9,571 nucleotides of DNA, from the IMG/VR virus record IMGVR_UViG_2703718868_000012, positions 1 through 9,571 of that record. One strand, 5' to 3'. This document shows, one piece after another, positions 1-9,571 of this stretch. A program made the translations under genes and the position numbers. Under the pieces are notes generated by a model. It saw nothing but the letters and a program-made list of their open reading frames with translations. It made no database searches and was not told the DNA's origin. Each line of letters begins with the position of its first letter. The stretch's first letter is position 1. This stretch comes from a virus. Lineage: Duplodnaviria > Heunggongvirae > Uroviricota > Caudoviricetes.

Positions 1-1890
1 TCATAGTGAATCTGTCCCGCCTGATTTGACCATACCGCGATAATCCAGAGCTGCCACACCTGCATCAATACGGACTTTCCAGGCCACGCCGTCAACGATA
101 AAACCTTCCTGCTGTTCAAGGTAAGGCTCGTCATTGCCATCAAGATAAGCCACCTCGATTGTGTCCGTTCCCTGTGCGGAAAGCATGTACCATTGTTTTT
201 CGCTGATATCATCAAGGCGGGGATCGACGATGATATCAAGTAGCTTGTGATACGGGTTAAAGATCCCGCTGTTTTTATCAGCCCCGAAAGGTGCGGTTGA
301 GTTAATCATCTGCAACGCGCGATCTTCCAGTGCTGCCGGAACTAAAAGGAATTTAGGCGCAATATTCAGCACTTCGCCATTTTTGTCCTTCTGTGTGCGC
401 ATCAGGTGACGTGCTGCACTAAGTCCCGGTGTTGTCAGTCCTGCTTCAATCAGGTTGCTGTGTTTTTTGTCAAACAGCGCTATTCCGTCAGAAAGTTTTA
501 CGTTGCCTGTAAGCACCAGATTAACCAGATTTCCCACCGTTCTTGATGCTGCACGGCCCATAGCCATTGGCACCGTTGATAACTGATCAAGGTCATCATT
601 GATTATCGCCTGGCGGGTAATACTGAAAATATTCCCGTAAGTAGCCAGCGCGATGGGTTCACCGCGATCGCTGGTGGTGATGTATTTATATTCTGCCCCT
701 TCCGGCACTTTGTTTAACGTTGAGAAGCCATTCATACCAACGCGGCGGGCTTCCCGGAAGTTTGAAAGGGAACCTTTTTTCGTCCACTGGCGGAATGTTT
801 CGCCGCTGTGCTCCCAGCCTGCAAGCACTGATTTTTCAGCGCCACCAGCAAGAATATCGGTAAAATCGCTGCTGCTGTGGGTGAATGCCGCGTTTACTAT
901 CTGCGAGCGTGTGCCGTAGCTGCCCGTGCTTATACCACGATGGGTTAATGATGCCTGTGCCATATCGAAAAGGCTCATCATGGCGTAAGGATTACCGCGT
1001 TCGGCCCGTTCGTGACCAAGACGCGCATTAAGCCCCTGGCGCATTGCATCGCCGGTTATGTTGCCGTTATCCGTGTACGCGTAGTAAAGATTTGCGGGGG
1101 TGGTTTTGTTTGTTGGCGTTGATTCTTTACCCATAGCGAGTAAAAGGCGTTCGCGTGCATTCTCAACGCTACATTCTGAATCAGCAAGACAACTTATAGC
1201 CAGGTCGTTATATCTTCCGTTGAACGTGCCAAACAATTCACGTATCCCGTTGAGTCGTTCCTGTTCTCCGCTGCCAGTTTTCTGGCTGATCATGTTTTTA
1301 ATATTTTCCGGCATATTTGAAAAATCTCCGATTCGTTTTGATTCAATTCGGGCCATTGCTGTAATCGCGGGTATAACCTCATCTGCGAAACCGTTAGCCT
1401 TACACTCATTGCCATCCATCCAGGTTTCCGCCTCCATCATGGCGGTGATTTCCTGTTTACTCCTGCCCGTTCTTCCGGCGTAGGTTTCTGCCATCGTGTC
1501 GCCCAGCTTGTCCATCAGGTCAGCAAAGCGGCGAACGTCGCCCGACACTCCGGCAGTAACACCACGGGGGGCATGTATCATCATCATCGCGTTTTCAGGC
1601 ATAACGATGTGATCGCCACACATGGCAATAAACGAGGCCATAGAAGCCGCCATGCCCTCAATGTGTACAATTTTCTTTGCCGGATGATTTTTCAGGGCGT
1701 TATAGATAGCCAGCCCTTCAAAGATGTCGCCACCAGGTGAATGGATGCGAAGATGGATTTCAGACGCATTACCACACGCGTTGATCTCGTCAGTAAGTGC
1801 CGATGCTTTTACACCGTACCCGCCGATCTCGTCATAAATGCGCACATAGACAACATCTGCCATAGCCTTAATGGAAAACCATGTTTTCAT
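1..1890 (-). CDS. Prohead serine protease (ClpP-like) - scaffold-like linker - HK97-fold major capsid protein, single 629-aa polypeptide
   Basis: ATG at 1890, TGA at 3-1. N-terminal ~170 aa carry ClpP-like motifs GMAASMASF (compare E. coli ClpP GQAASMGAF around the catalytic Ser) and MMMIHAPRG (ClpP MIHQP, catalytic His). Middle ~100 aa are charged and helical. C-terminal ~330 aa look like an HK97-family major capsid protein (...FNPYHKLLDIIVDPRLDD...). Confidence 0.85.
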   Translation of the reverse strand: MKTWFSIKAMADVVYVRIYDEIGGYGVKASALTDEINACGNASEIHLRIHSPGGDIFEGLAIYNALKNHPAKKIVHIEGMAASMASFIAMCGDHIVMPENAMMMIHAPRGVTAGVSGDVRRFADLMDKLGDTMAETYAGRTGRSKQEITAMMEAETWMDGNECKANGFADEVIPAITAMARIESKRIGDFSNMPENIKNMISQKTGSGEQERLNGIRELFGTFNGRYNDLAISCLADSECSVENARERLLLAMGKESTPTNKTTPANLYYAYTDNGNITGDAMRQGLNARLGHERAERGNPYAMMSLFDMAQASLTHRGISTGSYGTRSQIVNAAFTHSSSDFTDILAGGAEKSVLAGWEHSGETFRQWTKKGSLSNFREARRVGMNGFSTLNKVPEGAEYKYITTSDRGEPIALATYGNIFSITRQAIINDDLDQLSTVPMAMGRAASRTVGNLVNLVLTGNVKLSDGIALFDKKHSNLIEAGLTTPGLSAARHLMRTQKDKNGEVLNIAPKFLLVPAALEDRALQMINSTAPFGADKNSGIFNPYHKLLDIIVDPRLDDISEKQWYMLSAQGTDTIEVAYLDGNDEPYLEQQEGFIVDGVAWKVRIDAGVAALDYRGMVKSGGTDSL

Positions 1891-2081
1891 AGCCAGGCCC
1901 CTAACGTTGCCCTGTACCAGTATTCAACCGCGCTGCGTGTGATTTGTCCTTTCGTGGGTACTGGCATACCCGGGTGATTATCTTTGATGAACTGCTGATA
2001 GCGTTCGATCTTCTCCATAGTTCCGGCGTCTATGTGTACCGTGGCACTTTTATCCGGCTTTCTGGTGTTGTTCTCTGGCAT
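1887..2081 (-). CDS. Hypothetical 64-aa protein, first gene of the capsid operon
   Basis: Strong SD AAGGAGGTGG (plus 2087-2096) ~5 nt before the ATG at 2081. Stop overlaps the capsid ATG as ATGA (1887-1890). The track ORF begins 11 codons further upstream without an RBS. No recognisable motif. Confidence 0.5.
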   Translation of the reverse strand: MPENNTRKPDKSATVHIDAGTMEKIERYQQFIKDNHPGMPVPTKGQITRSAVEYWYRATLGAWL

Positions 2082-2157
2082 AAATCCACCTCCTTTTTGG
2101 TTAACGGGCATCATTATTGATCGATAAAAGTAATAGATAAATCATTTTCTACCTGAA

Positions 2158-3223: not shown

Positions 3224-3271
3224 TTTTATTTTTACCCCCTCGTTTAAAAAGTTTTGAGTTGTGCCTCCCCT

Positions 3272-3498
3272 TGTCTACCTTATCTACCTTACTGGCCACC
3301 ATGCCAGTAATGGCGCGGCTTTCAGTGGGGTAGAGTGCTTTTATCCACTATCTACCCCGTATCTACCTCCCTGTCTGATTCAGGTAAAATCAGGTAGAGA
3401 GGGTAGATAGTAGGTAGACAGTAAAAAAAGGCTGTCTACCCAAGTTAATGTACTGAATTAAATGTATTTTTCTTTACTCAGGTAGACAGGGTAGACAG
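3272..3498. repeat. Iteron array, putative replication origin
   Basis: Eleven copies of the core GGTAGA / TCTACC. Plus-orientation TCTACC at 3274, 3283, 3351, 3362, 3435; reverse GGTAGA at 3329, 3393, 3402, 3413, 3481, 3490. Includes tandem GGTAGACAG x2 (3481-3498) and a 9-bp inverted pair GGTAGACAG (3413-3421) / CTGTCTACC (3432-3440). AT-rich stretch 3441-3480. Sits immediately 3' of the primase gene. Confidence 0.7.
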
Positions 3499-3511
3499 CC
3501 ATTGCAACAAA

Positions 3512-5266
3512 TTATAAAAACGCGTCGCAATCGTCTGTTGTTATTGCGTTAGTCTGCGTTACTCCTTTAACTTTCCGCGTAATATATTCATGTCCGTAAA
3601 CTTTCGCGGCTGGCTTCATAGCCTTGCCAAAGTCATTTACGTTTAGCGGTTTGCTCCTGCCTGCGTACGCCATAAACGCCAGATAGACGCGGTAAAGGCT
3701 GTTTCTGGTCGTGTACTTCACTGAATCGCCACCGCCGCCCATCATCAGGCCGCGTGCTTCCTCCAGAAAATTCAGGAACTGGCAAAACTCAATAACCGGA
3801 TCCGTCTGTTGCTTTATTGCCAGTGCTTCATCACCGTCACGCTGTTCCAGTAGTAAAGCCCGTGCCTTCTCAGGGTCGGTAAAGTTCGCCAGCAATCGGC
3901 GGATAATGACAGGGATTTCAGCCGCAATCTTTTCCGGTAGCTCCCTGTCTTTTTCGGCCTCACTGACGATATTGTCGAAACGGAAAATCACGCGACGACG
4001 TGCCACACCTCCGGCCCGTTCGGTGAATATCATCGGGTTATTGTTGGTCGCCAGCACCACCGCCCTGATTACAGCCGTGAAACGCTTTTCGTATTTCGGG
4101 TTAATTTCCACGGGGTCACCGCCCGTGATTTTCTTGATGCCCGTTCCTTCGCCTGTATATTTCGGCTGGTCAGCCAGGACGATAAGGCGACTCCCGACAA
4201 CCTGCGCACGTCCACCAGCATCATCAAGCGATGTCATTTCAGCGCTTACCGTGTTCTGTTTCCCTGCCAGAAGGCTGGCTATGTGTGTGAATGTACTTTT
4301 ACCGCTCCCGCCGTCTCCGGTGGCCTCAATAAACATCTGCCAGTCGTACCGGTTCGCCATAATCATGTACAGCGCGGCACATATCCGCATCATCTTGCGC
4401 GGGTCTTTTCCGGCTGCGTGCTCAAGCCATTTATGAAAGTTTGGCGCGTTATCGCGGATGTTCTCCCCTGGTGCTGGTGGCGTGTACTCAATACTGTTGT
4501 GCGTGGTGATCCAGTTCTCCGGCGTGTGCGGGGAAAATTCCCCCGTTTTCAGGTCAAGCGCACCATTGGCAAACGGCAGCAAATCGCCGGACGGCTCGCC
4601 CATTGGTTCGGCAATAACTTTTAACGCTTCCACGGCGTTATTGATTACGCGCTTGCTGAAAGTGGCCCTGTGCTCTGAATAGATCGCCACCATTTCGCGG
4701 CTAAGTTCCATTGTGCTGACCGGACACCATACCCCGCCGCGCCATACGTGAACGATTTCACTTTCAGGATGCACGCAAACGCCATCAAATCGTCCGGCAA
4801 GAAGTTGAGCGCGCTCACTGTCCGCCATCTGCGAAAGTTGCGCCTTTTGCTTTACAGGAAGCTCAATAACCAGCCCATCAGAAAGATTCTGGCGCTCACT
4901 GGCCAGATATTCGCGCCAGTTCTCCACCTTCTGACCGTGCATACCATCAGGGTAAAAATTTGCATCCTGTACGCCTGCCGCCGCCAGCTTCTGACCAATC
5001 GCCTTTATCATTACTGGCGCAAGATATCCGGCCCTGAATATGCGCACGGATTTTCTGCCTTCCGGCACAATTTGCAGCTTATCCAGTTCTGATAACTGCT
5101 GCTCCCCAAGCCACACAGGAGGCTCATTATCTCCGGCCATACGCGCGTCATGTTCCTGCCATTGTTTCGCGTGTGACCAGGCATCACTACCCGCAAAAAT
5201 AATGACTTCTGTTTCTTTGTGTTTTATGCCGCGTGGCTGCTGTTTTACGTTCGGTGCCAGTTTCAT
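3512..5266 (-). CDS. Phage/plasmid primase, P4 family (primase-helicase, D5-like NTPase)
   Basis: 584 aa. Walker A GDGGSGKST seen directly; a Walker B-like hydrophobic stretch ...LIVLAD... follows. Overall resemblance to the P4-alpha C-terminal / D5-type replicative primase-helicases of satellites. ATG at 5266 overlaps the upstream stop as ATGA; SD AGGGG ~8 nt upstream. Confidence 0.85.
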   Translation of the reverse strand: MKLAPNVKQQPRGIKHKETEVIIFAGSDAWSHAKQWQEHDARMAGDNEPPVWLGEQQLSELDKLQIVPEGRKSVRIFRAGYLAPVMIKAIGQKLAAAGVQDANFYPDGMHGQKVENWREYLASERQNLSDGLVIELPVKQKAQLSQMADSERAQLLAGRFDGVCVHPESEIVHVWRGGVWCPVSTMELSREMVAIYSEHRATFSKRVINNAVEALKVIAEPMGEPSGDLLPFANGALDLKTGEFSPHTPENWITTHNSIEYTPPAPGENIRDNAPNFHKWLEHAAGKDPRKMMRICAALYMIMANRYDWQMFIEATGDGGSGKSTFTHIASLLAGKQNTVSAEMTSLDDAGGRAQVVGSRLIVLADQPKYTGEGTGIKKITGGDPVEINPKYEKRFTAVIRAVVLATNNNPMIFTERAGGVARRRVIFRFDNIVSEAEKDRELPEKIAAEIPVIIRRLLANFTDPEKARALLLEQRDGDEALAIKQQTDPVIEFCQFLNFLEEARGLMMGGGGDSVKYTTRNSLYRVYLAFMAYAGRSKPLNVNDFGKAMKPAAKVYGHEYITRKVKGVTQTNAITTDDCDAFL

Positions 5267-5562
5267 TTTTTGCCCCTGAATCCGTTAATCATGTTTTTCA
5301 TCTTCTGAATATTGGCGCGTGCTTTCTCCCTGCTGGTGGGCACGTTACGCGGTACGGCCTGCACAAGAGAAAAATCACGCCGGAACTGATAAACAGGCAT
5401 CACGCAATCATATTCGTAACCTTCACGGCGGTAAGTTACGCACCGTCCCGCCACGCCCTTAATCATTACCGTGCCGCCGTACTGGTCGCGGTAAATATCA
5501 CCGCGCGTAAATTTAGGGTGAGTGTTGCCACTGGCAGTTAAGCCAGAATATTTAAATTTCAT
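5263..5562 (-). CDS. Hypothetical 99-aa protein, translationally coupled to the primase
   Basis: ATG at 5562, 5 nt after the upstream TAA; stop overlaps the primase ATG. Basic protein, no motif recognised. Confidence 0.5.
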   Translation of the reverse strand: MKFKYSGLTASGNTHPKFTRGDIYRDQYGGTVMIKGVAGRCVTYRREGYEYDCVMPVYQFRRDFSLVQAVPRNVPTSREKARANIQKMKNMINGFRGKK

Positions 5563-6024: not shown

Positions 6025-6238
6025 AACCCCCCCCATTTTCACAATCAGCAACAAGAATATTTTTAGCGTCATTCAGTGACCGCGTTGCGGTGTATCGGAT
6101 ACATTCCAGGGCGAATAGTGTGTATTCTTCCCGTCCTTCCTTTTGTGCAAGCTCTGCTGTGCATTCAATATCAATAAGCGCGTGCATCAGCGTAGTGAGT
6201 GCGGCAGCTGCTGCGTCCGGTGTGGTTTTATTGTGCAT
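6017..6238 (-). CDS. Hypothetical 73-aa protein
   Basis: ATG at 6238 preceded by AGGGGGA ~6 nt upstream. The track start at 6277 is a TTG without RBS support. The last codons (...ENGGGYA) run through the G8 tract. Confidence 0.45.
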   Translation of the reverse strand: MHNKTTPDAAAAALTTLMHALIDIECTAELAQKEGREEYTLFALECIRYTATRSLNDAKNILVADCENGGGYA

Positions 6239-6428
6239 AGGTTTCCCCCTGGCGAATACGGGCGGCGAATACCGCAATACAACCGGACGGGCAACGGCTA
6301 CGCGCTTCGCGTTCCGTCCAGGCGGTTACGTGGATGATTTGAGATTCTCCGGCACTCAGTGCCAGAAAACGCCACACAAAGGCCGTTTGTGTGTGTGCTA
6401 GTCGTGGGGTATGATTTACGGCAACCAT
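6228..6428 (-). CDS. Hypothetical 66-aa protein, first ORF of the small-ORF/primase operon
   Basis: ATG at 6428 with SD GAGAGGT ~6 nt upstream; ends 11 nt inside the next ORF in another frame. No motif recognised. Confidence 0.4.
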   Translation of the reverse strand: MVAVNHTPRLAHTQTAFVWRFLALSAGESQIIHVTAWTEREARSRCPSGCIAVFAARIRQGETYAQ

Positions 6429-6502
6429 AAATTTACCTCTCTATAGTGTTTGTGGTTAGACGCCCTGCATGTGTTCCAGCACTGTGGGGCGTTGTTTTTT
6501 GG

Positions 6503-6575
6503 TGCAAGTCACCTTGAAATCTAGGTTACTTTTAGGTGACTTGCACTTCAAGTCTTTTTTTATTTTTTTTTCTCC
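6503..6575. promoter_or_regulatory. Divergent control region: 12-bp perfect inverted repeat (operator-like) followed by a hairpin and long T-tract
   Basis: TGCAAGTCACCT (6503-6514) and AGGTGACTTGCA (6534-6545) are exact reverse complements, 19-bp spacer. Second hairpin GACTTG (6538-6543) / CAAGTC (6549-6554) is followed by T7-A-T9 (6555-6571). Lies between the divergent starts at 6428 (minus) and 6613 (plus). Confidence 0.45.
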
Positions 6576-6612
6576 GTATACTGAACACCACCTAACAGTA
6601 AGGAGAACAGAG

Positions 6613-6792
6613 ATGCCAACAGGTACAACCAACAACAAGTCACAACAAAAAACTGCTAGAGTACCTCTAGACGTTTTAAGCGAAATGAATTTGGTAAAAG
6701 AAGAAAACGAAACAGACGCACAATTTATCGTTACTGCCATGCGCGGCGAAATCAAACGCCGCCAGCGTCGCAAGGCCAAAGAATCAGAATAA
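6613..6792 (+). CDS. Small basic protein, possible ribbon-helix-helix DNA-binding regulator (59 aa)
   Basis: Canonical SD AAGGAG (6600-6605) 7 nt before the ATG at 6613. Sequence ...ARVPLDVLSEMNLVKEENETDAQFIVTAMRGEIKRRQRRK fits a beta-strand / helix / loop / helix RHH pattern with a basic tail. The first ~120 nt are markedly AT-rich. The longer track ORF from 6469 would translate the palindrome and T-tract. Confidence 0.55.
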   Translation: MPTGTTNNKSQQKTARVPLDVLSEMNLVKEENETDAQFIVTAMRGEIKRRQRRKAKESE

Positions 6793-6849
6793 TCACTATC
6801 AGCGCCGTGGTGTGAGGTACTACGGCGCATTGCTTTACAGGGCAGTATC

Positions 6850-7077
6850 ATGACCAACAACACACTATCACCAATACAAGACACGCAAACGCAAGATGAT
6901 GAAATCATCCGGCAAAGGCAGTCAGAAGCCTGCGCCAGACTTGAGGAAGAACTAACCAGAACAAAAATACCACCACCAGCGCCGCGCTTAGTGCCACCAG
7001 AAAAATTTGCCCTTGAAGATTTTGTCGATAAATACCCACGGCGGCTTAAATCCGGCAAAAACCGACCGCCAGGATGA
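6850..7077 (+). CDS. Hypothetical 75-aa protein (acidic, helical N-half, Pro-rich C-half)
   Basis: ATG at 6850 with a weak GGG SD ~7 nt upstream; reading frame looks protein-like. Preceded by hairpin GCGCCGT (6802-6808) / ACGGCGC (6822-6828). Confidence 0.4.
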   Translation: MTNNTLSPIQDTQTQDDEIIRQRQSEACARLEEELTRTKIPPPAPRLVPPEKFALEDFVDKYPRRLKSGKNRPPG

Positions 7078-7196
7078 GTGCACAAGACGGAACCATGAAA
7101 CGGATTATTCCGTTTCCGGGGCGTTTGTGTGTGTATAAAGAGTAAGCTATGCTCTTTTATAGCCATAATCGTTACCTCAATTAATGGTTTGGTTAG

Positions 7197-7238
7197 AAGC
7201 CCGTTGGTGTTCATAGCGCCAGCGGGCTTTGCTTTTTG
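7197..7238 (+). terminator. Rho-independent terminator ending the 6613-7077 transcription unit
   Basis: 11-bp stem AAGCCCGTTGG (7197-7207) / CCAGCGGGCTT (7219-7229) with one G-U pair, 11-nt loop, then a U-rich tail TTGCTTTTTGTG. Confidence 0.5.
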
Positions 7239-7248
7239 TGTTGATTGT

Positions 7249-7282
7249 ATGTAATGTGTCACCACGCATAAATACATTACAT
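7249..7282 (+). promoter_or_regulatory. 9-bp perfect inverted repeat, candidate operator just upstream of the Arc-like gene
   Basis: ATGTAATGT (7249-7257) and ACATTACAT (7274-7282) are exact reverse complements, 16-bp spacer. Preceded by a TTGATT -35-like hexamer (7241-7246); ends 15 nt before the GTG start. Confidence 0.35.
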
Positions 7283-7296
7283 GAGGTGTAATTAAC

Positions 7297-7476
7297 GTGT
7301 CAACACACAAAAACGAAAGGCGTGGTAATCCTCCGTTCCAGTTCCGTTTAGATCCTGACTTACGGGAAAAGATGGAAAAGGCACAACAACATGACGGCGA
7401 TGATTCTCTTGCTGCCTGGATAAAGCGAATAATCCGCAAAGAATTACAGCAACGCGGCATAGAACCCAAAGGGTAA
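7297..7476 (+). CDS. Arc-family ribbon-helix-helix DNA-binding protein (59 aa)
   Basis: GTG at 7297 with SD GAGGTG 8 nt upstream. PPFQFRLDPDLREKMEKAQQHDGDDSLAAWIKRIIRKEL matches the Arc repressor pattern (P22 Arc PQFNLRWPREVLDLVRKVAEENGRSVNSEIYQRV). Absent from the supplied track (GTG start, under 60 aa). Confidence 0.6.
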   Translation: MSTHKNERRGNPPFQFRLDPDLREKMEKAQQHDGDDSLAAWIKRIIRKELQQRGIEPKG

Positions 7477-7571
7477 TTACATTGCCCACCAGCCTGATAG
7501 CGGCTATCATTCCCGTGCTTATGTTTGGGATCACATACACATAAGGCGCAGCAGGTTAATTGTTCACAAGG

Positions 7572-7597
7572 GCGTTCCGGCAACGGGGCGCTTTTTG
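7572..7597 (+). terminator. Terminator-like hairpin plus T5 downstream of the Arc-like gene
   Basis: Stem GCGTTCC (7572-7578) / GGGGCGC (7585-7591) including G-U pairs, loop GGCAAC, then TTTTT. No U-tract on the opposite strand. Confidence 0.35.
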
Positions 7598-7626
7598 TTA
7601 TGTTCATCGTGTCAAGCCTCACACCA

Positions 7627-7833
7627 TTACGCAGCCGTTCCGCGTGCTTCCTGCTCACGTTCTTTCATCCATGCGATTACGTCTTCCTCATACCATCCGC
7701 GACGGCGTAAACCAACGCGAAAACCCTGCGGAAATTCTCCGGCGTTGATCATGCTTTGAAGCGTGCTGTCTGCCTTGATGTGGATAAGTTTTTTTACTTC
7801 CTGGCGAAAGATGACTTTTTTGATTGCTTCCAT
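7627..7833 (-). CDS. alpA: AlpA-family transcriptional regulator / excisionase-like protein (68 aa)
   Basis: ...IKADSTLQSMINAGEFPQGFRVGLRRRGWYEEDVIAWMKE matches the AlpA pattern (helix-turn-helix, then G.FP...LG.R...W...V..W). Sits near the integrase as in P4-like and PICI elements. Confidence 0.8.
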   Translation of the reverse strand: MEAIKKVIFRQEVKKLIHIKADSTLQSMINAGEFPQGFRVGLRRRGWYEEDVIAWMKEREQEARGTAA

Positions 7834-8329: not shown

Positions 8330-9571
8330 CTAAACGGCTCGGATACCCCTTTTACCACTGGCGAGGGTTACGCCCGTCGCCGCAGCCTCGACAAATTCGC
8401 CCCACCAGCGCATAAGCACCACGCGTTTTTCTATGTAGTTGCTCCGGTTGTATGCCCGTCTCACTTCGTTAGTGTCGACGTGGGCAAGTGCGGCCTCGAT
8501 TACGTCCGGCTCGAATCCTTCCTCGTTCGCTGCTGTACTGAATATGGCGCGTAATCCATGAGACACCAGCACGCCAGCGAACCCCATGCGTCGTAATGCT
8601 GCGTTTGCTGTCTGGCTGTTCATTGGCTGCCGTGGGTCTTTCAGACTCGGGAAAACATAATCGCGGTGGCGGCTGATTGGTTTCATGGCCTCCAGCACCG
8701 CCATAGCCTGACCGGAAAGTGGGATAACGTGATCCCTGCGCATCTTCATGCGTCCGGCGGGTATCGTCCAGCGTTGCGCGTCCAGGTCGATTTCATCCCA
8801 CCGCGTTGATGACGCTTCGGCGGGACGGGTTACGGTCAGTAACTGCCATTCAATCAGTAATCTGGTCTGCCGTTCTGTTGCCGATACTGATAAAGCCTGC
8901 ATAAGCTCCGGCAACTGTTCGGGGCGGATTGTTGGCATATGTTTTTTTACAGGGGAGGGGAACGCCTTACGCACATTCATAGCCGGATTGGCATCAATCA
9001 GCCCACTGTTGGCGGCGTAATCCATTACCTCATTAACGCGCTGTAAAACCCGTTTGAGTGTTTCCAGGTTGCCGCGCTCCTTGATGGGGGTAAGCACCTC
9101 AACGAACCTGCGAGCGGTCAGGGTGTCTATTGGGGTGTTGCCGATGAACGGGAATACATATTTATCCAGCGATCGCCAGATGTCTTTAATCGTGTTGGGG
9201 GCCAGATTCTGGCTGATTTTCACCTGGTACCATGCCGCCGCCACATTTTCGAACGTGTTCCCTTGTCTTCGGGCCTCTGCCTCTCGTTTTTTCTTCTCAT
9301 GGCCCTGCGGGTCAGTTCCGGCACTGATTAACGCTCTGTACTCGCTACGGCGTTTTCTGGCATCAGCCAGGGAAACATCATCAAGCGATCCAAAACTCAG
9401 CAATATTCTTTTTTTGTCCGATGGCCGGTAGTAGGAAAATCGCCAGAGTTTTGATCCGGACGGTTTGACCAGGAGAAAAAGCCCTCCGCCGTCCTGTAGG
9501 GTGTATTCCTTTTCCGCTGGTCTGGCTGCTTTGATCTGCACCGTGGTTAATGGGGGTGTTTTTCTCGCCAT
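8330..9571 (-). CDS. int: Site-specific tyrosine integrase, P4 / CP4-57 type
   Basis: 413 aa. N-terminus MARKTPPLTTVQIKAARPAEKEYTLQDGGGLFLLVKPSGSKLWRFSYY is typical of P4-family integrase arm-binding domains. C-terminal catalytic region carries HGLR... and ...RAYNRSNY (candidate His/Arg/Tyr residues). ATG is at the very last bases of the window, so upstream signals are unseen. Confidence 0.9.
   Translation of the reverse strand: MARKTPPLTTVQIKAARPAEKEYTLQDGGGLFLLVKPSGSKLWRFSYYRPSDKKRILLSFGSLDDVSLADARKRRSEYRALISAGTDPQGHEKKKREAEARRQGNTFENVAAAWYQVKISQNLAPNTIKDIWRSLDKYVFPFIGNTPIDTLTARRFVEVLTPIKERGNLETLKRVLQRVNEVMDYAANSGLIDANPAMNVRKAFPSPVKKHMPTIRPEQLPELMQALSVSATERQTRLLIEWQLLTVTRPAEASSTRWDEIDLDAQRWTIPAGRMKMRRDHVIPLSGQAMAVLEAMKPISRHRDYVFPSLKDPRQPMNSQTANAALRRMGFAGVLVSHGLRAIFSTAANEEGFEPDVIEAALAHVDTNEVRRAYNRSNYIEKRVVLMRWWGEFVEAAATGVTLASGKRGIRAV

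What the first reader, a model, noticed from the sequence alone, without database searches (positions are those of the whole stretch)
6613..7077. Counter-oriented two-gene module (RHH-like regulator plus 75-aa protein) between alpA and the primase operon
These are the only well-supported plus-strand genes here. The first has a perfect SD, an RHH-like fold pattern and a visibly AT-rich 5' half compared with surrounding genes. The pair is bracketed by a palindromic control region upstream and a strong terminator at 7197-7238. The position between the induction regulator and the replication operon is where satellites place repressors or helper-sensing switches. It could also be an acquired cargo module such as an antitoxin-like regulator with a partner, or an anti-helper factor.
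Basis: partly seen in the sequence, partly recalled or inferred. Interest (0 to 1): 0.65.

Follow-up and report, generated by a model that had tools for sequence, protein, structure and literature searches.

The report
Repressor module of a phage satellite
The two plus-strand genes are real: the first is very probably the sequence-specific repressor that keeps this E. coli phage satellite's replication genes silent, a role not yet assigned in Gram-negative satellites, and the second is a small Escherichia-only accessory protein of unknown function that rides behind it.

Summary
Gene g1 (6613-6792) and gene g2 (6850-7077) are conserved coding genes under purifying selection (dN/dS 0.3-0.6). The claim that they are the only plus-strand genes is wrong: 7297-7476 (g3) is a third.

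- **g1** is a 59-aa ribbon-helix-helix (RHH) protein of the named but uncharacterised YlcI/YnfO family.
- **Position.** In 29 islands from about 14 genera, including the prototype EcCICFT073, it sits divergent from the Icd-like/primase operon.
- **Binding sites.** It is flanked by three GTG-N5-CAC sites. Their central bases co-vary with the protein's beta-strand residues (Mantel r 0.79, 0 of 5000 permutations).
- **Promoters.** One site lies in the spacer of a conserved leftward promoter. Another overlaps the -10 of g1's own promoter. I infer a repressor of the replication operon and of itself.
- **Terminator.** The "strong terminator" at 7197-7238 is a second copy of a conserved plus-strand hairpin. 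That hairpin probably ends a ~78-nt antisense RNA covering the Icd-like start site.
- **g2** is a non-globular, Escherichia-restricted protein. It is joined to g1 by a conserved 57-nt hairpin spacer and is absent from other genera.
- **Tandem units.** E. coli islands carry one to three such units. Here g3 is an orphan repressor from a different immunity type.

Verdict: a new member of a known kind, with moderate interest.

The parts
6613..6792 (+). g1: 59-aa ribbon-helix-helix (RHH) protein of the YlcI/YnfO family; inferred operator-specific repressor
6802..6836 (+). Conserved GC-rich hairpin with a weak U-tract inside the invariant 57-nt g1-g2 spacer; inferred attenuator and recombination junction
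   Evidence: Terminator-like. Near-identical in all E. coli units, even after the non-homologous g3-type RHH. Free energy is -14 to -19 kcal/mol on the plus strand against -9 to -14 on the reverse complement. A mosaic breakpoint lies at about 6828.
6850..7077 (+). g2: 75-aa accessory protein with the conserved C-terminal motif KFALEDFVxKYPRRLKSGKNRPPG; function unknown
   Evidence: 17 clusters, all E. coli. An exhaustive profile search gives 19 representatives, and every named member is E. coli or Shigella. dN/dS is 0.35. AF2 predicts helix 9-39, a Pro-rich linker and helix 55-61, with pTM 0.34. No Pfam, PHROG, NCBIfam or PADLOC hit.
6502..6512 (-). Operator O1 (GTGACTTGCAC on the minus strand), at about +5 to +15 of the inferred leftward transcript
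   Evidence: Exact inverted copy of O2. An O1 equivalent lies 22-35 nt from O2 in 28 of the 29 loci; L028 is the exception (8/11 match, 53 nt).
6536..6546 (+). Operator O2 (GTGACTTGCAC), inside the spacer of the inferred leftward promoter P_L
   Evidence: The distance from the end of O2 to the -10 of P_R is 30-31 nt in all 29 loci. The core sequence co-varies with the RHH beta-strand.
6523..6551 (-). Inferred leftward promoter P_L for the Icd-like/primase operon: -35 TTGAAG (6546-6551), 17-nt spacer, -10 TAACCT (6523-6528)
   Evidence: TTGA is invariant in 29 of 29 loci. TAnnnT lies at 17-18 nt in 28 of 29. The A-tract upstream on the minus strand (6553-6571) resembles an UP element (sequence).
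6577..6591 (+). P_R -10 hexamer TATACT (6577-6582) overlapping operator O3 (CTGAACACCAC, 6581-6591; degenerate in this island)
   Evidence: A -10 hexamer is found at the same position in all 29 loci. In most loci O3 matches O2. In the window it matches 6 of 11 positions.
6422..6500 (+). Inferred ~78-nt cis-antisense RNA over the Icd-like RBS and start codon, ending in the hairpin at 6462-6492 and the T-run at 6493-6500. Candidate promoter: -35 TTGTGT 6387-6392, -10 TATGAT 6410-6415
   Evidence: The hairpin is 2-14 kcal/mol (mostly 5-10) more stable on the plus strand than on the reverse complement in all 29 copies folded, 28 loci plus the window's second copy. RNAalifold finds 21 pairs, 12 with compensatory changes, and many G.U pairs. 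By my reading of the segments, a TAnnnT hexamer lies at a fixed distance from the terminator. A weak symR match covers exactly 6423-6496 on the plus strand, at 25.9 bits against a gathering score of 61.
7119..7240 (+). Second copy of the element: 5' remnant of an Icd-like gene (minus strand, ATG at 7164-7166) plus the antisense-RNA/terminator hairpin at 7196-7230. It also terminates g1-g2 transcripts
   Evidence: Aligned with 6381-6500. The native arrangement, with an intact Icd-like gene, is seen in L042. Terminator free energy is -26 kcal/mol.
7249..7282 (.). Inverted repeat ATGTAATGT-N16-ACATTACAT upstream of g3; candidate operator of the second unit
   Evidence: These are the only two copies in the window. 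The repeat is conserved in L042 and L037.
7297..7476 (+). g3: orphan Arc-like RHH gene of a second, heterologous unit. Its partner (g4) has been deleted
   Evidence: phrog_228 'Arc-like repressor' at 3.4e-6. YlcI_YnfO_N at 0.0029. Relatives carry the spacer and g4 after it, and the window joins the 3' end of g3 to the 3' end of g4. g3 is the Icd-proximal regulator in L042.
6228..6428 (-). Icd-like gene, first gene of the tightly overlapping leftward operon that ends in the primase (3512-5266); inferred target of the control region
   Evidence: NCBIfam phage_ICD_like at 1.5e-17. Synteny of the Icd-like gene divergent from the RHH gene is seen in most of the related loci from other genera.

Best explanation
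g1 encodes a small dimeric ribbon-helix-helix (RHH) repressor. It recognises 11-bp GTG-N5-CAC operators in the divergent control region between itself and the Icd-like/primase operon.

How I think it works:
1. Bound at O2, inside the spacer of the leftward promoter, and at O1, just downstream of that promoter's -10, the protein shuts off the satellite's early/replication operon while the island is quiescent.
2. Bound at O3, over the -10/+1 of its own promoter, it autoregulates.
3. A short plus-strand antisense RNA ending at the conserved hairpin adds a second lock on translation of the first gene of that operon.
4. g2 is transcribed from the same promoter by read-through of a weak hairpin attenuator. 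It is a lineage-specific passenger: a mostly helical or disordered protein that probably acts by binding another macromolecule through its conserved C-terminal amphipathic helix and basic tail.
5. Operators plus the N-terminal half of g1 form one exchangeable 'immunity cassette'. The g1 C-terminus with the spacer, and the partner gene, form further cassettes.
6. E. coli islands stack one to three such units. In this window the second unit (g3) is an orphan repressor from another immunity type.

Shown: the genes are real, the fold is RHH, synteny holds across genera, and operator and protein co-vary. The promoter-like and terminator-like elements are conserved, and the locus is mosaic.

Inferred: DNA binding, the direction of regulation, the existence of the antisense RNA, and any function for g2.
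For: Genes are real:
- RefSeq annotation in relatives.
- dN/dS of 0.3-0.6.

RHH fold:
- NCBIfam at 4.7e-17.
- AF2 model.
- An in-register hhalign match to Arc at E 0.0012.

Core position:
- The Icd-like gene is divergent from the RHH gene, with int beyond it, in most of the related loci from Cedecea, Pectobacterium, Dickeya, Serratia, Xenorhabdus, Proteus, Morganella and others; a few lack a detectable Icd-like or int match.
- The same layout is present in the prototype EcCICFT073.

Operators:
- Three sites lie at fixed geometry. The distance from O2 to the -10 of P_R is 30-31 nt in all 29 loci.
- Mantel r between beta-strand identity and operator identity is 0.785 (0 of 5000 permutations). 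The partial r controlling for flank identity is 0.737.
- Loci with the same beta-strand in different genera have operator identity 0.96 against flank identity 0.72.
- Loci with a different beta-strand in the same genus have operator identity 0.47 against flank identity 0.63.

Leftward promoter:
- TTGAnn, then 17-18 nt, then TAnnnT in 28 of 29 loci, with O2 in the spacer.

Antisense RNA:
- Strand-asymmetric hairpin stability and compensatory pairs.
- The antisense promoter hexamer.

Other:
- Mosaic breakpoints at about 6428, 6748 and 6828.
- g2 is restricted to Escherichia and absent after g1 in other genera.
[quoted passage not shown] The EcCICFT073 copies of these small genes carry out-of-series RefSeq locus tags (C_RS30120, C_RS30125, C_RS30800). 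I read these as late additions to the annotation.
Against: - No experimental data exist: no binding assay, no transcript mapping, no mutant.
- Both promoters are consensus-level predictions. The generic promoter scan found none of them.
- P_R has no recognisable -35.
- In this window O3 matches O2 at only 6 of 11 positions, so autoregulation may be weak here.
- Over-expression of AlpA alone induces EcCICFT073 (PMC6092414). A repressor must therefore be bypassable, for example by read-through from alpA, and that is untested.
- Sequence-only searches against PDB give nothing. Foldseek on the monomer model gives nothing.
- The loci are phylogenetically related, so the permutation statistics overstate independence.
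- For g2 there is no positive functional evidence at all.
Confidence: 0.68

Rival explanations
1. Type II toxin-antitoxin or addiction module: g1 is an RHH antitoxin and autorepressor, and g2 is its toxin. The pair would stabilise the island or abort infection.
Against: - The genes are separated by an invariant 57-nt spacer containing a terminator-like hairpin, not overlapping or coupled.
- g1 ends with helix B and has no toxin-binding extension.
- g2 is predicted non-globular, with pTM 0.34, and matches no toxin or defence family.
- Identical partners pair with unrelated RHH types: g4 follows both g1-type and g3-type RHH genes.
- The RHH occurs alone in all non-Escherichia loci, at a fixed position beside the replication operon.
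- The operators sit in the promoter of the neighbouring operon.
Confidence: 0.07
2. Arc/Ant-like switch: g1 is only a negative autoregulator that limits a burst of g2, and g2 is the effector. g2 would be a small antirepressor or anti-helper protein, comparable to P22 Ant, P4 epsilon or the Gifsy antirepressors. It would act on helper-prophage repressors or on competing phages and satellites. Stacked units would widen the target range.
For: - The layout mimics P22 immI, where Arc precedes Ant and an antisense RNA acts nearby (established knowledge).
- Enterobacter cf-PICIs list AntA/AntB antirepressors together with YlcI/YnfO and Icd (PMC13612085).
- An AntA gene sits in this zone in L037.
- The partner family is diverse at its N-terminus, has a conserved binding-type motif, and occurs in several variants per genome.
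- The same slot carries variable cargo in other genera.
Against: This does not explain why O1 and O2 lie inside the conserved leftward promoter, or why the RHH is kept at this position in genera that have no partner at all. No similarity links g2 to any known antirepressor. The idea is compatible with the best explanation as the function of g2, rather than being a true alternative for g1.
Confidence: 0.15
3. g1 and g2 together form a two-component regulator. g2 would bind g1 as a co-repressor or anti-repressor and set the island's on/off decision.
For: In E. coli the partner always lies downstream of an RHH gene (or of its spacer remnant, as in L037), and the spacer is conserved. g1 has a strictly conserved basic C-terminal helix (EIKRRQRR) and the partners have acidic helices.
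Against: The basic tail is equally conserved in genera that lack partners. The same partner follows RHH proteins with unrelated C-termini. The window's g3 lost its partner by a clean deletion while remaining intact.
Confidence: 0.08

Closest known systems
P22 immI region (Arc and Mnt RHH repressors, Ant, sar antisense RNA)
   Different: There is no detectable sequence homology at family level. The controlled operon here is a replication operon headed by an Icd-like gene, not ant. There are three dispersed 11-bp sites rather than one 21-bp operator. The downstream partner is unrelated to Ant.
P1/P7 immI (c4 antisense RNA - icd - ant) and the P4 CI RNA system
   Same: An Icd-like small ORF heads an operon whose downstream genes overlap it, which is the setting for translational coupling. 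An RNA targets its translation start. This is established knowledge for P1 c4/icd/ant. Ash-type relatives of this island do carry Rfam C4 and isrK (L036).
   Different: No C4 or isrK match was found in the window or in seven related Icd-type islands. The RNA inferred here is a cis-antisense transcript from the opposite strand, not a processed trans-acting RNA from the same transcript. A protein repressor is added.
Plasmid copy-number circuits: pMV158 CopG + RNAII; R1 CopB + CopA
   Different: In pMV158 the repressor gene lies within the rep operon, whereas here it is divergent. The element is an integrated, helper-dependent satellite. Whether it controls copy number is unknown.
SaPI Stl / Gram-positive PICI Rpr master repressors
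   Same: The regulator occupies the same genomic logic: divergently transcribed from the excision/replication operon, next to int. Accessory genes follow the repressor on the int side (PMC6092414).
   Different: Stl and Rpr are larger helix-turn-helix proteins that are inactivated by binding helper-phage proteins. Nothing is known about how, or whether, g1 is inactivated. Gram-negative PICIs are induced through AlpA (PMC6092414).
YlcI (DLP12) / YnfO (Qin) of E. coli K-12, family NF041551 / DUF3950
   Same: g1 passes the NCBIfam family cutoff (61.7 bits against 30). All are about 60-aa prophage- or satellite-borne proteins with the same beta-helix-helix pattern.
   Different: K-12 ylcI is divergent from the terminase small-subunit gene nohD, not from a replication operon. 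BLASTP finds no pairwise similarity to g1. The family has no characterised function.

Membership tests
YlcI/YnfO family (NCBIfam NF041551) | Score above the curated cutoff of the family HMM | tested here: met
   g1 scores 61.7 bits against a cutoff of 30, E 4.7e-17, covering the whole 42-position profile. g3 scores only 17.6 bits, below the cutoff, so g3 is not filed as a member.
Ribbon-helix-helix (Arc/MetJ/CopG) DNA-binding fold | N-terminal beta-strand followed by two helices joined by a G-x-S/T/N-type turn | tested here: met
Ribbon-helix-helix (Arc/MetJ/CopG) DNA-binding fold | Obligate dimer whose paired beta-strands read the major groove of (pseudo)symmetric sites | tested here: inconclusive
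   Dimerisation was not modelled. Indirect support: pseudo-palindromic GTG-N5-CAC sites whose centre co-varies with the beta-strand residues.
Satellite/phage master (immunity) repressor | Operators overlap the promoter of the lytic/replication operon and the repressor's own promoter | tested here: met
   In silico only. O2 lies in the spacer of TTGAnn-17/18-TAnnnT in 28 of 29 loci, and O3 overlaps the -10 of P_R in 29 of 29.
Satellite/phage master (immunity) repressor | Loss of the protein derepresses the element; the protein binds the operators | not testable with these tools
   This needs EMSA or footprinting, reporter fusions and a deletion mutant.
Type II toxin-antitoxin module | Adjacent or overlapping co-translated genes, with a toxin of a recognisable fold or family | tested here: not met
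   There is a 57-nt spacer with a terminator-like hairpin. g2 has no Pfam, NCBIfam, PADLOC or PDB match and a non-globular model.
Type II toxin-antitoxin module | Antitoxin carries a toxin-neutralising extension, and the pair co-occur and co-evolve | tested here: not met
   g1 is 59 aa and ends with helix B. Partners are shuffled among unrelated RHH types and are absent outside Escherichia.
C4 / isrK (P1 c4, P4 CI) immunity RNAs | Match to Rfam RF01695 or RF01394 at the gathering score | tested here: not met
   There is none in the window at E up to 1, and none in the window or seven related Icd-type islands at the gathering score. The models do detect the RNAs in the Ash-type locus L036.
SymR-like cis-antisense RNA | Match to Rfam RF01809 at the gathering score | tested here: not met
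   25.9 bits against a gathering score of 61, E 0.17. Only the geometry is alike: a ~77-nt RNA antisense to the RBS and start of a small gene.
Phage-inducible chromosomal island (Gram-negative, capsid-forming type), as context | int, alpA, primase/replication module and satellite-encoded capsid genes in the canonical order | tested here: met
   int is at 8330-9571 and the AlpA-like gene at 7627-7833 (Pfam 0.003, PHROG excisionase/regulator 1.4e-7). The primase is at 3512-5266 and the ClpP-like protease/major capsid fusion at 1-1890. No portal or terminase lies within the window.

The most novel reading that the evidence does not exclude
g1-type RHH proteins are the missing 'master repressors' of Gram-negative PICIs and cf-PICIs. 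They would come in at least ten operator specificities that behave as exchangeable immunity cassettes. Extra stacked units, such as g3 here with its own antisense-RNA copy, would be heterologous immunity modules that let one satellite silence co-resident or incoming rival satellites of another type. AlpA-driven leftward transcription would read through the counter-oriented units, because all strong terminators in the region are plus-strand-specific. That would both bypass the repressed promoter and extinguish repressor synthesis by transcriptional interference. The Escherichia-specific partners would be effectors against helper phages or rival satellites, expressed in the quiescent state.
Probability: 0.25. 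Interest if true: 0.75.

Novelty: new member of a known kind. Interest (0 to 1): 0.52.

Why it matters
Gram-negative phage-inducible chromosomal islands move virulence and defence genes at high frequency. How they stay silent is unresolved. [quoted passage not shown] In EcCICFT073 the small genes described here carry out-of-series RefSeq locus tags, which I read as later additions to the annotation.

This analysis supplies:
- a concrete candidate repressor, with predicted operators, promoters and specificity-determining residues;
- a candidate antisense RNA.

All of these can be tested directly with EMSA, reporter fusions and deletions in an existing model system. The operator/beta-strand pairs also form a natural set of orthogonal small repressors. 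If the reading is wrong, the locus is still a clear example of cassette-style mosaicism in satellite control regions.

Tried and rejected
Searches that found nothing:
- Sequence searches of g1 and g2 against PDB.
- tblastn of g1 and g2 against 50,697 phage records. The module belongs to satellites rather than to sequenced phages.
- Pfam, NCBIfam and PADLOC for g2 and the other partner types. PHROGs gives nothing for g2, though the g4 and CFT073 partners match phrog_21027, unknown function. The Cas8g hit for g4 (17.6 bits) is taken as chance.
- The generic sigma-70 scan, which found no promoter in the control region. The promoters proposed here rest on cross-locus conservation instead.
- Literature searches for YlcI, YnfO, DUF3950, or RHH proteins in PICIs, which returned only annotation-table mentions.

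Results too weak to use:
- BLASTP of g1 against g3 and of g1 against K-12 YlcI found no alignment. The relationship between g1 and g3 rests only on weak profile hits.
- The symR match is well below threshold. I use it only as a pointer to the region.
- I did not run a fold search on the g2 model, because its pTM of 0.34 would give meaningless matches.

Readings considered and rejected:
- The long minus-strand ORF 6456-7658 as the real gene. It has no homologues or family, and it is antisense to three conserved genes.
- The 13-bp palindrome as an RNA hairpin or terminator. The arms are separate operator copies, and in other loci they occur as direct repeats.
Full report
**Context**

The window is part of an E. 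coli phage satellite of the capsid-forming PICI type. On the minus strand it carries:
- a ClpP-like protease/major-capsid fusion (1-1890);
- SSB (2547-2969);
- a primase (3512-5266);
- a DUF4222 gene (5263-5562);
- three small ORFs;
- an Icd-like gene (6228-6428);
- an AlpA-like gene (7627-7833);
- an integrase (8330-9571).

The best whole-island relative is E. coli 2012EL-2448, at 95.9% identity over 93% of the window. There the island lies next to a tRNA-Pro gene. About a third of complete E. coli genomes match some part of the island.

**Checking the observation**

- g1 (6613-6792) has an AAGGAG Shine-Dalgarno sequence at 6600-6605.
- The control region and the 5' half of g1 are AT-rich.
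- A perfect 13-bp inverted repeat lies at 6502-6514 / 6534-6546.
- A strong hairpin with a T-run lies at 7196-7240.
- RefSeq relatives annotate both ORFs.
- Both are under purifying selection. g2 against a 66%-identical homologue gives dN/dS 0.35. g1 pairs give 0.31-0.56. g1 against the Cedecea orthologue gives dN 0.118 with saturated dS.

One statement is wrong. ORF 7297-7476 (g3) is a third plus-strand gene. It is annotated in relatives and matches the Arc-like repressor PHROG at 3.4e-6.

**What g1 is**

- g1 passes the curated cutoff of NCBIfam YlcI_YnfO_N (61.7 bits against 30). The family is named but has no characterised function. The literature search found only annotation-table mentions.
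- Its homologues occur across Enterobacterales (119 clusters).
- The conserved pattern is KSQQLNARFPHDVV..LE...EGE[ST]KAQFIVTAVKGEIKRRQR. It reads as beta-strand, helix, G-x-S/T turn, helix.
- AlphaFold gives an extended N-terminus and two helices (pLDDT 80).
- hhalign aligns the family with Arc in register (E 0.0012).
- Sequence-only PDB searches and Foldseek found nothing.

**g1 is a core gene, not cargo**

A pattern search of one genome per species returned 29 loci. They come from Cedecea, Citrobacter, Tenebrionibacter, Pectobacterium, Dickeya, Serratia, Franconibacter, Xenorhabdus, Morganella, Proteus, Enterobacter and Sodalis.

In most of them the g1 homologue is divergent from an Icd-like gene, about 200 nt away. 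A primase or DUF4222 gene lies beyond that, and an integrase lies on the other side.

The experimentally studied prototype EcCICFT073 has the same arrangement: int, alpA, a 57-aa partner, the YlcI/YnfO gene, then the divergent Icd-like gene and the primase operon. These three small genes carry out-of-series locus tags (C_RS30120, C_RS30125, C_RS30800). I read these as late additions to the annotation.

The 2018 study of EcCICFT073 tested AlpA as a possible repressor and found it to be an activator. [quoted passage not shown] A later comparative paper calls this interval a 'dynamic zone' of Bro-N proteins and immunity RNAs and does not mention an RHH (PMC10111431).

**The control region**

Aligning the regions upstream of g1 showed a fixed architecture. 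There are three copies of an 11-bp GTG-N5-CAC site.
- In the window, O1 is 6502-6512 (inverted), O2 is 6536-6546, and O3 is 6581-6591.
- O3 starts inside a conserved -10 hexamer (TATACT, 6577-6582) that lies 30-31 nt from the end of O2 in all 29 loci.
- On the minus strand, TTGAnn is invariant immediately beside O2 (window 6546-6551).
- It is followed after 17-18 nt by TAnnnT in 28 of 29 loci (window TAACCT, plus-strand 6523-6528).

So O2 lies in the spacer of a leftward promoter that faces the Icd-like/primase operon, and O1 lies just downstream of that promoter's -10.

The central bases of the sites differ between loci in step with the beta-strand residues of the protein.

| Beta-strand residues | Operator | Where seen |
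|---|---|---|
| QQLNARF | GTGAATCGCAC | 13 loci of six genera |
| QQKTARV / RQKTARV | GTGACT(T/C)(G/C)CAC | E. coli, Cedecea |
| QKLQARA | GTGGA(T/C)TCCAC | several genera |
| QKMSARV | CTGGCACCCA | two loci (Proteus, Xenorhabdus) |
| QSVTVRV | GTGTCTTACA | two Xenorhabdus loci |

The statistics support this:
- The Mantel correlation between beta-strand identity and operator identity is 0.785 (0 of 5000 permutations), and 0.737 after controlling for flank identity.
- Loci with the same beta-strand in different genera share 96% of operator positions but 72% of flank positions.
- Loci with different beta-strands in the same genus share 47% of operator positions against 63% of flank positions.

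The loci are related, so the permutation figure is not a true probability. The contrast between operator and flank is the informative part.

I infer that g1 binds these sites, represses the leftward operon at O2 and O1, and autoregulates at O3. In this particular island O3 is degenerate (6 of 11 matches to O2).

**The 'terminator' and an antisense RNA**

The segment 6381-6500 is duplicated at 7119-7240. It contains the first ~15 codons of an Icd-like gene on the minus strand, its RBS, and a hairpin followed by a T-run on the plus strand.

- The hairpin is present upstream of g1 in every locus.
- In all 29 copies folded (28 loci plus the window's second copy), it is 2-14 kcal/mol (mostly 5-10) more stable on the plus strand than on the reverse complement.
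- RNAalifold finds 21 pairs, 12 with compensatory changes, and frequent G.U pairs that would be A.C on the other strand.
- By my reading of the segments, a TAnnnT hexamer lies at a fixed distance upstream. It sits inside the Icd-like codons, and its key positions are kept even where the encoded amino acids change.
- In the window this gives TTGTGT-17-TATGAT (6387-6415) and a predicted RNA of about 78 nt (6422-6500). The RNA is antisense to the Icd-like RBS and start codon.
- A small 5' hairpin presents the anti-Shine-Dalgarno sequence in its loop.

Rfam has no family for this. Only a sub-threshold symR match covers exactly this interval. C4 and isrK are absent from Icd-type islands but are detected in an Ash-type relative.

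The genes of the leftward operon overlap or abut one another. Blocking translation of the first gene could therefore act on the whole operon, as is established for c4-icd-ant in P1.

All three strong intrinsic terminators between the Icd-like gene and alpA are plus-strand-specific. The minus strand has only one weak candidate. Leftward transcription from alpA could therefore read through the counter-oriented genes into the replication operon. This would reconcile a repressor with the published finding that AlpA alone induces the island. It is an inference.

**g2 and the unit architecture**

In E. coli relatives the interval holds one to three tandem units. Each unit is a 59-aa RHH gene, an invariant 57-nt spacer, and a 57-75-aa partner gene.

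- The spacer, with its GC-rich hairpin and weak U-tract (6802-6836), is nearly identical even after the non-homologous g3-type RHH.
- The partners are g2, g4 and the CFT073 type, with further variants found by profile search and in L038.
- They share only a core motif, (K/R)F(A/V)LE(D/E)F(L/V)xK(Y/H)(P/S)R, followed by a basic tail.
- An exhaustive profile search of 1.84 billion representatives found only 19 members. Every named one is from E. coli or Shigella, including strain ED1a.
- No partner follows g1 in any other genus. That slot instead holds variable cargo, such as a protein kinase or a wHTH protein.
- The g2 model is a long helix, a proline-rich linker and a short helix (pTM 0.34).
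- The same partner follows RHH proteins with unrelated C-termini. This argues against a dedicated RHH-partner complex and against a toxin-antitoxin pair.

I therefore treat g2 as a lineage-specific passenger of the repressor transcript, with unknown target.

**Mosaicism and the second unit**

Sliding identity shows three breakpoints.
- Against L002, the Icd-like gene is 93-97% identical. The control region and the N-terminal two thirds of g1 fall to 38-65%. From about 6748 onward identity returns to 88-100%.
- Against the closest island (L041), everything is identical up to about 6828. The partner then differs: g4 instead of g2.

So the operators plus the DNA-reading half of g1 behave as one exchangeable immunity cassette.

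The window's second unit (7119-7476) is the control region and RHH of a different immunity type. Its native form, next to an intact Icd-like gene, is seen in E. coli TUM9812. Here only a 5' stub of that Icd-like gene remains. The partner g4 has been removed by a clean deletion that fuses the 3' end of g3 to the 3' end of g4. Its candidate operator, ATGTAATGT in inverted repeat at 7249-7282, occurs nowhere else in the window.

**Comparison with known systems**

Functionally the region resembles:
- P22 immI (Arc/Mnt with the sar RNA);
- P1 immI (c4-icd-ant);
- plasmid copy-control pairs (CopG with RNAII, CopB with CopA);
- by position, the Stl/Rpr repressors of Gram-positive PICIs.

Membership is met for the YlcI/YnfO family and the RHH fold. 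It is not met for toxin-antitoxin modules, C4/isrK or SymR.

**Verdict**

The finding is real and the regulator reading is right for g1. The 'two-gene module' is better described as a core repressor cassette with an exchangeable Escherichia-specific passenger, inside a stack of such units.

The kind of system is familiar, so I file it as a new member of a known kind. It bears on a question the PICI literature leaves open, and the predictions are precise, so interest is moderate.

Confidence:
- about 0.7 that g1 is an operator-specific repressor of the two divergent promoters;
- about 0.6 that the plus-strand antisense RNA exists;
- low for any specific function of g2.

Noticed in passing
window 6381-6500 and 7119-7240: Conserved plus-strand hairpin with a T-run, preceded by a TAnnnT hexamer inside the Icd-like 5' codons. 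This is a candidate ~78-nt cis-antisense RNA over the Icd-like RBS and start, with no Rfam family. It shows strand-asymmetric stability and compensatory pairs across the related loci (28 plus the window's second copy). A second copy lies next to an Icd-like 5' stub.
   Followed up: partly
window 7297-7476: Third plus-strand gene (g3), an Arc-like RHH of a different immunity type. Its partner gene (g4 in relatives) was removed by a clean deletion that changes the last codon and the stop. In E. coli TUM9812 (L042) the same RHH is the Icd-proximal regulator.
   Followed up: yes
window 3269-3503: Field of GGTAGA(C/T)AG iterons in both orientations just downstream of the primase gene, probably the satellite replication origin. 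The weak Rfam mir-3927 match at 3336-3433 is this inverted-repeat field.
   Followed up: partly
window 6456-7658 (minus strand): A 400-aa ORF runs antisense through g1, g2 and g3. It has no homologue or family and is taken as spurious.
   Followed up: partly
L036:3115-3300 (minus strand): An Ash-type relative carries Rfam C4 (76 bits) and isrK (80 bits) inside its ash gene. Icd-type islands, including the window and EcCICFT073, have neither. The two island types seem to use different immunity RNAs.
   Followed up: partly
L008:6681-7169, L010:6595-7326, L013:7075-7548: In Pectobacterium the slot downstream of the RHH gene holds variable cargo: a protein kinase (Pkinase 3.6e-35), a wHTH/DnaD_N protein, and a weak PemK-like ORF. 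This suggests an accessory or defence hotspot transcribed with the repressor.
   Followed up: partly
L043:3137-3316 (E. coli plasmid pC21A02010): A g3-like gene annotated as YlcI/YnfO sits on a plasmid, divergent from a WYL-domain gene and a BREX operon. The same small RHH type may regulate other mobile defence loci.
   Followed up: no
L005:9113-9181, L008:3847-3913, L016:9057-9125: The Rfam int-alpA RNA (RF02996) is present next to the integrase gene in relatives from other genera, but it is not detected in the window.
   Followed up: no
window 1887-2114 (minus strand): A 75-aa ORF directly upstream of the protease-capsid fusion matches phrog_4934 (1.5e-50, unknown function). By eye its sequence has a beta-helix-helix-like pattern, so it may be another small regulator heading the late operon. 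This was not tested.
   Followed up: no
L040:6252-6446 (E. coli K-12 DLP12): The family namesake ylcI is transcribed divergently from the terminase small-subunit gene nohD across a 388-nt gap, a different context from the satellite copies.
   Followed up: partly
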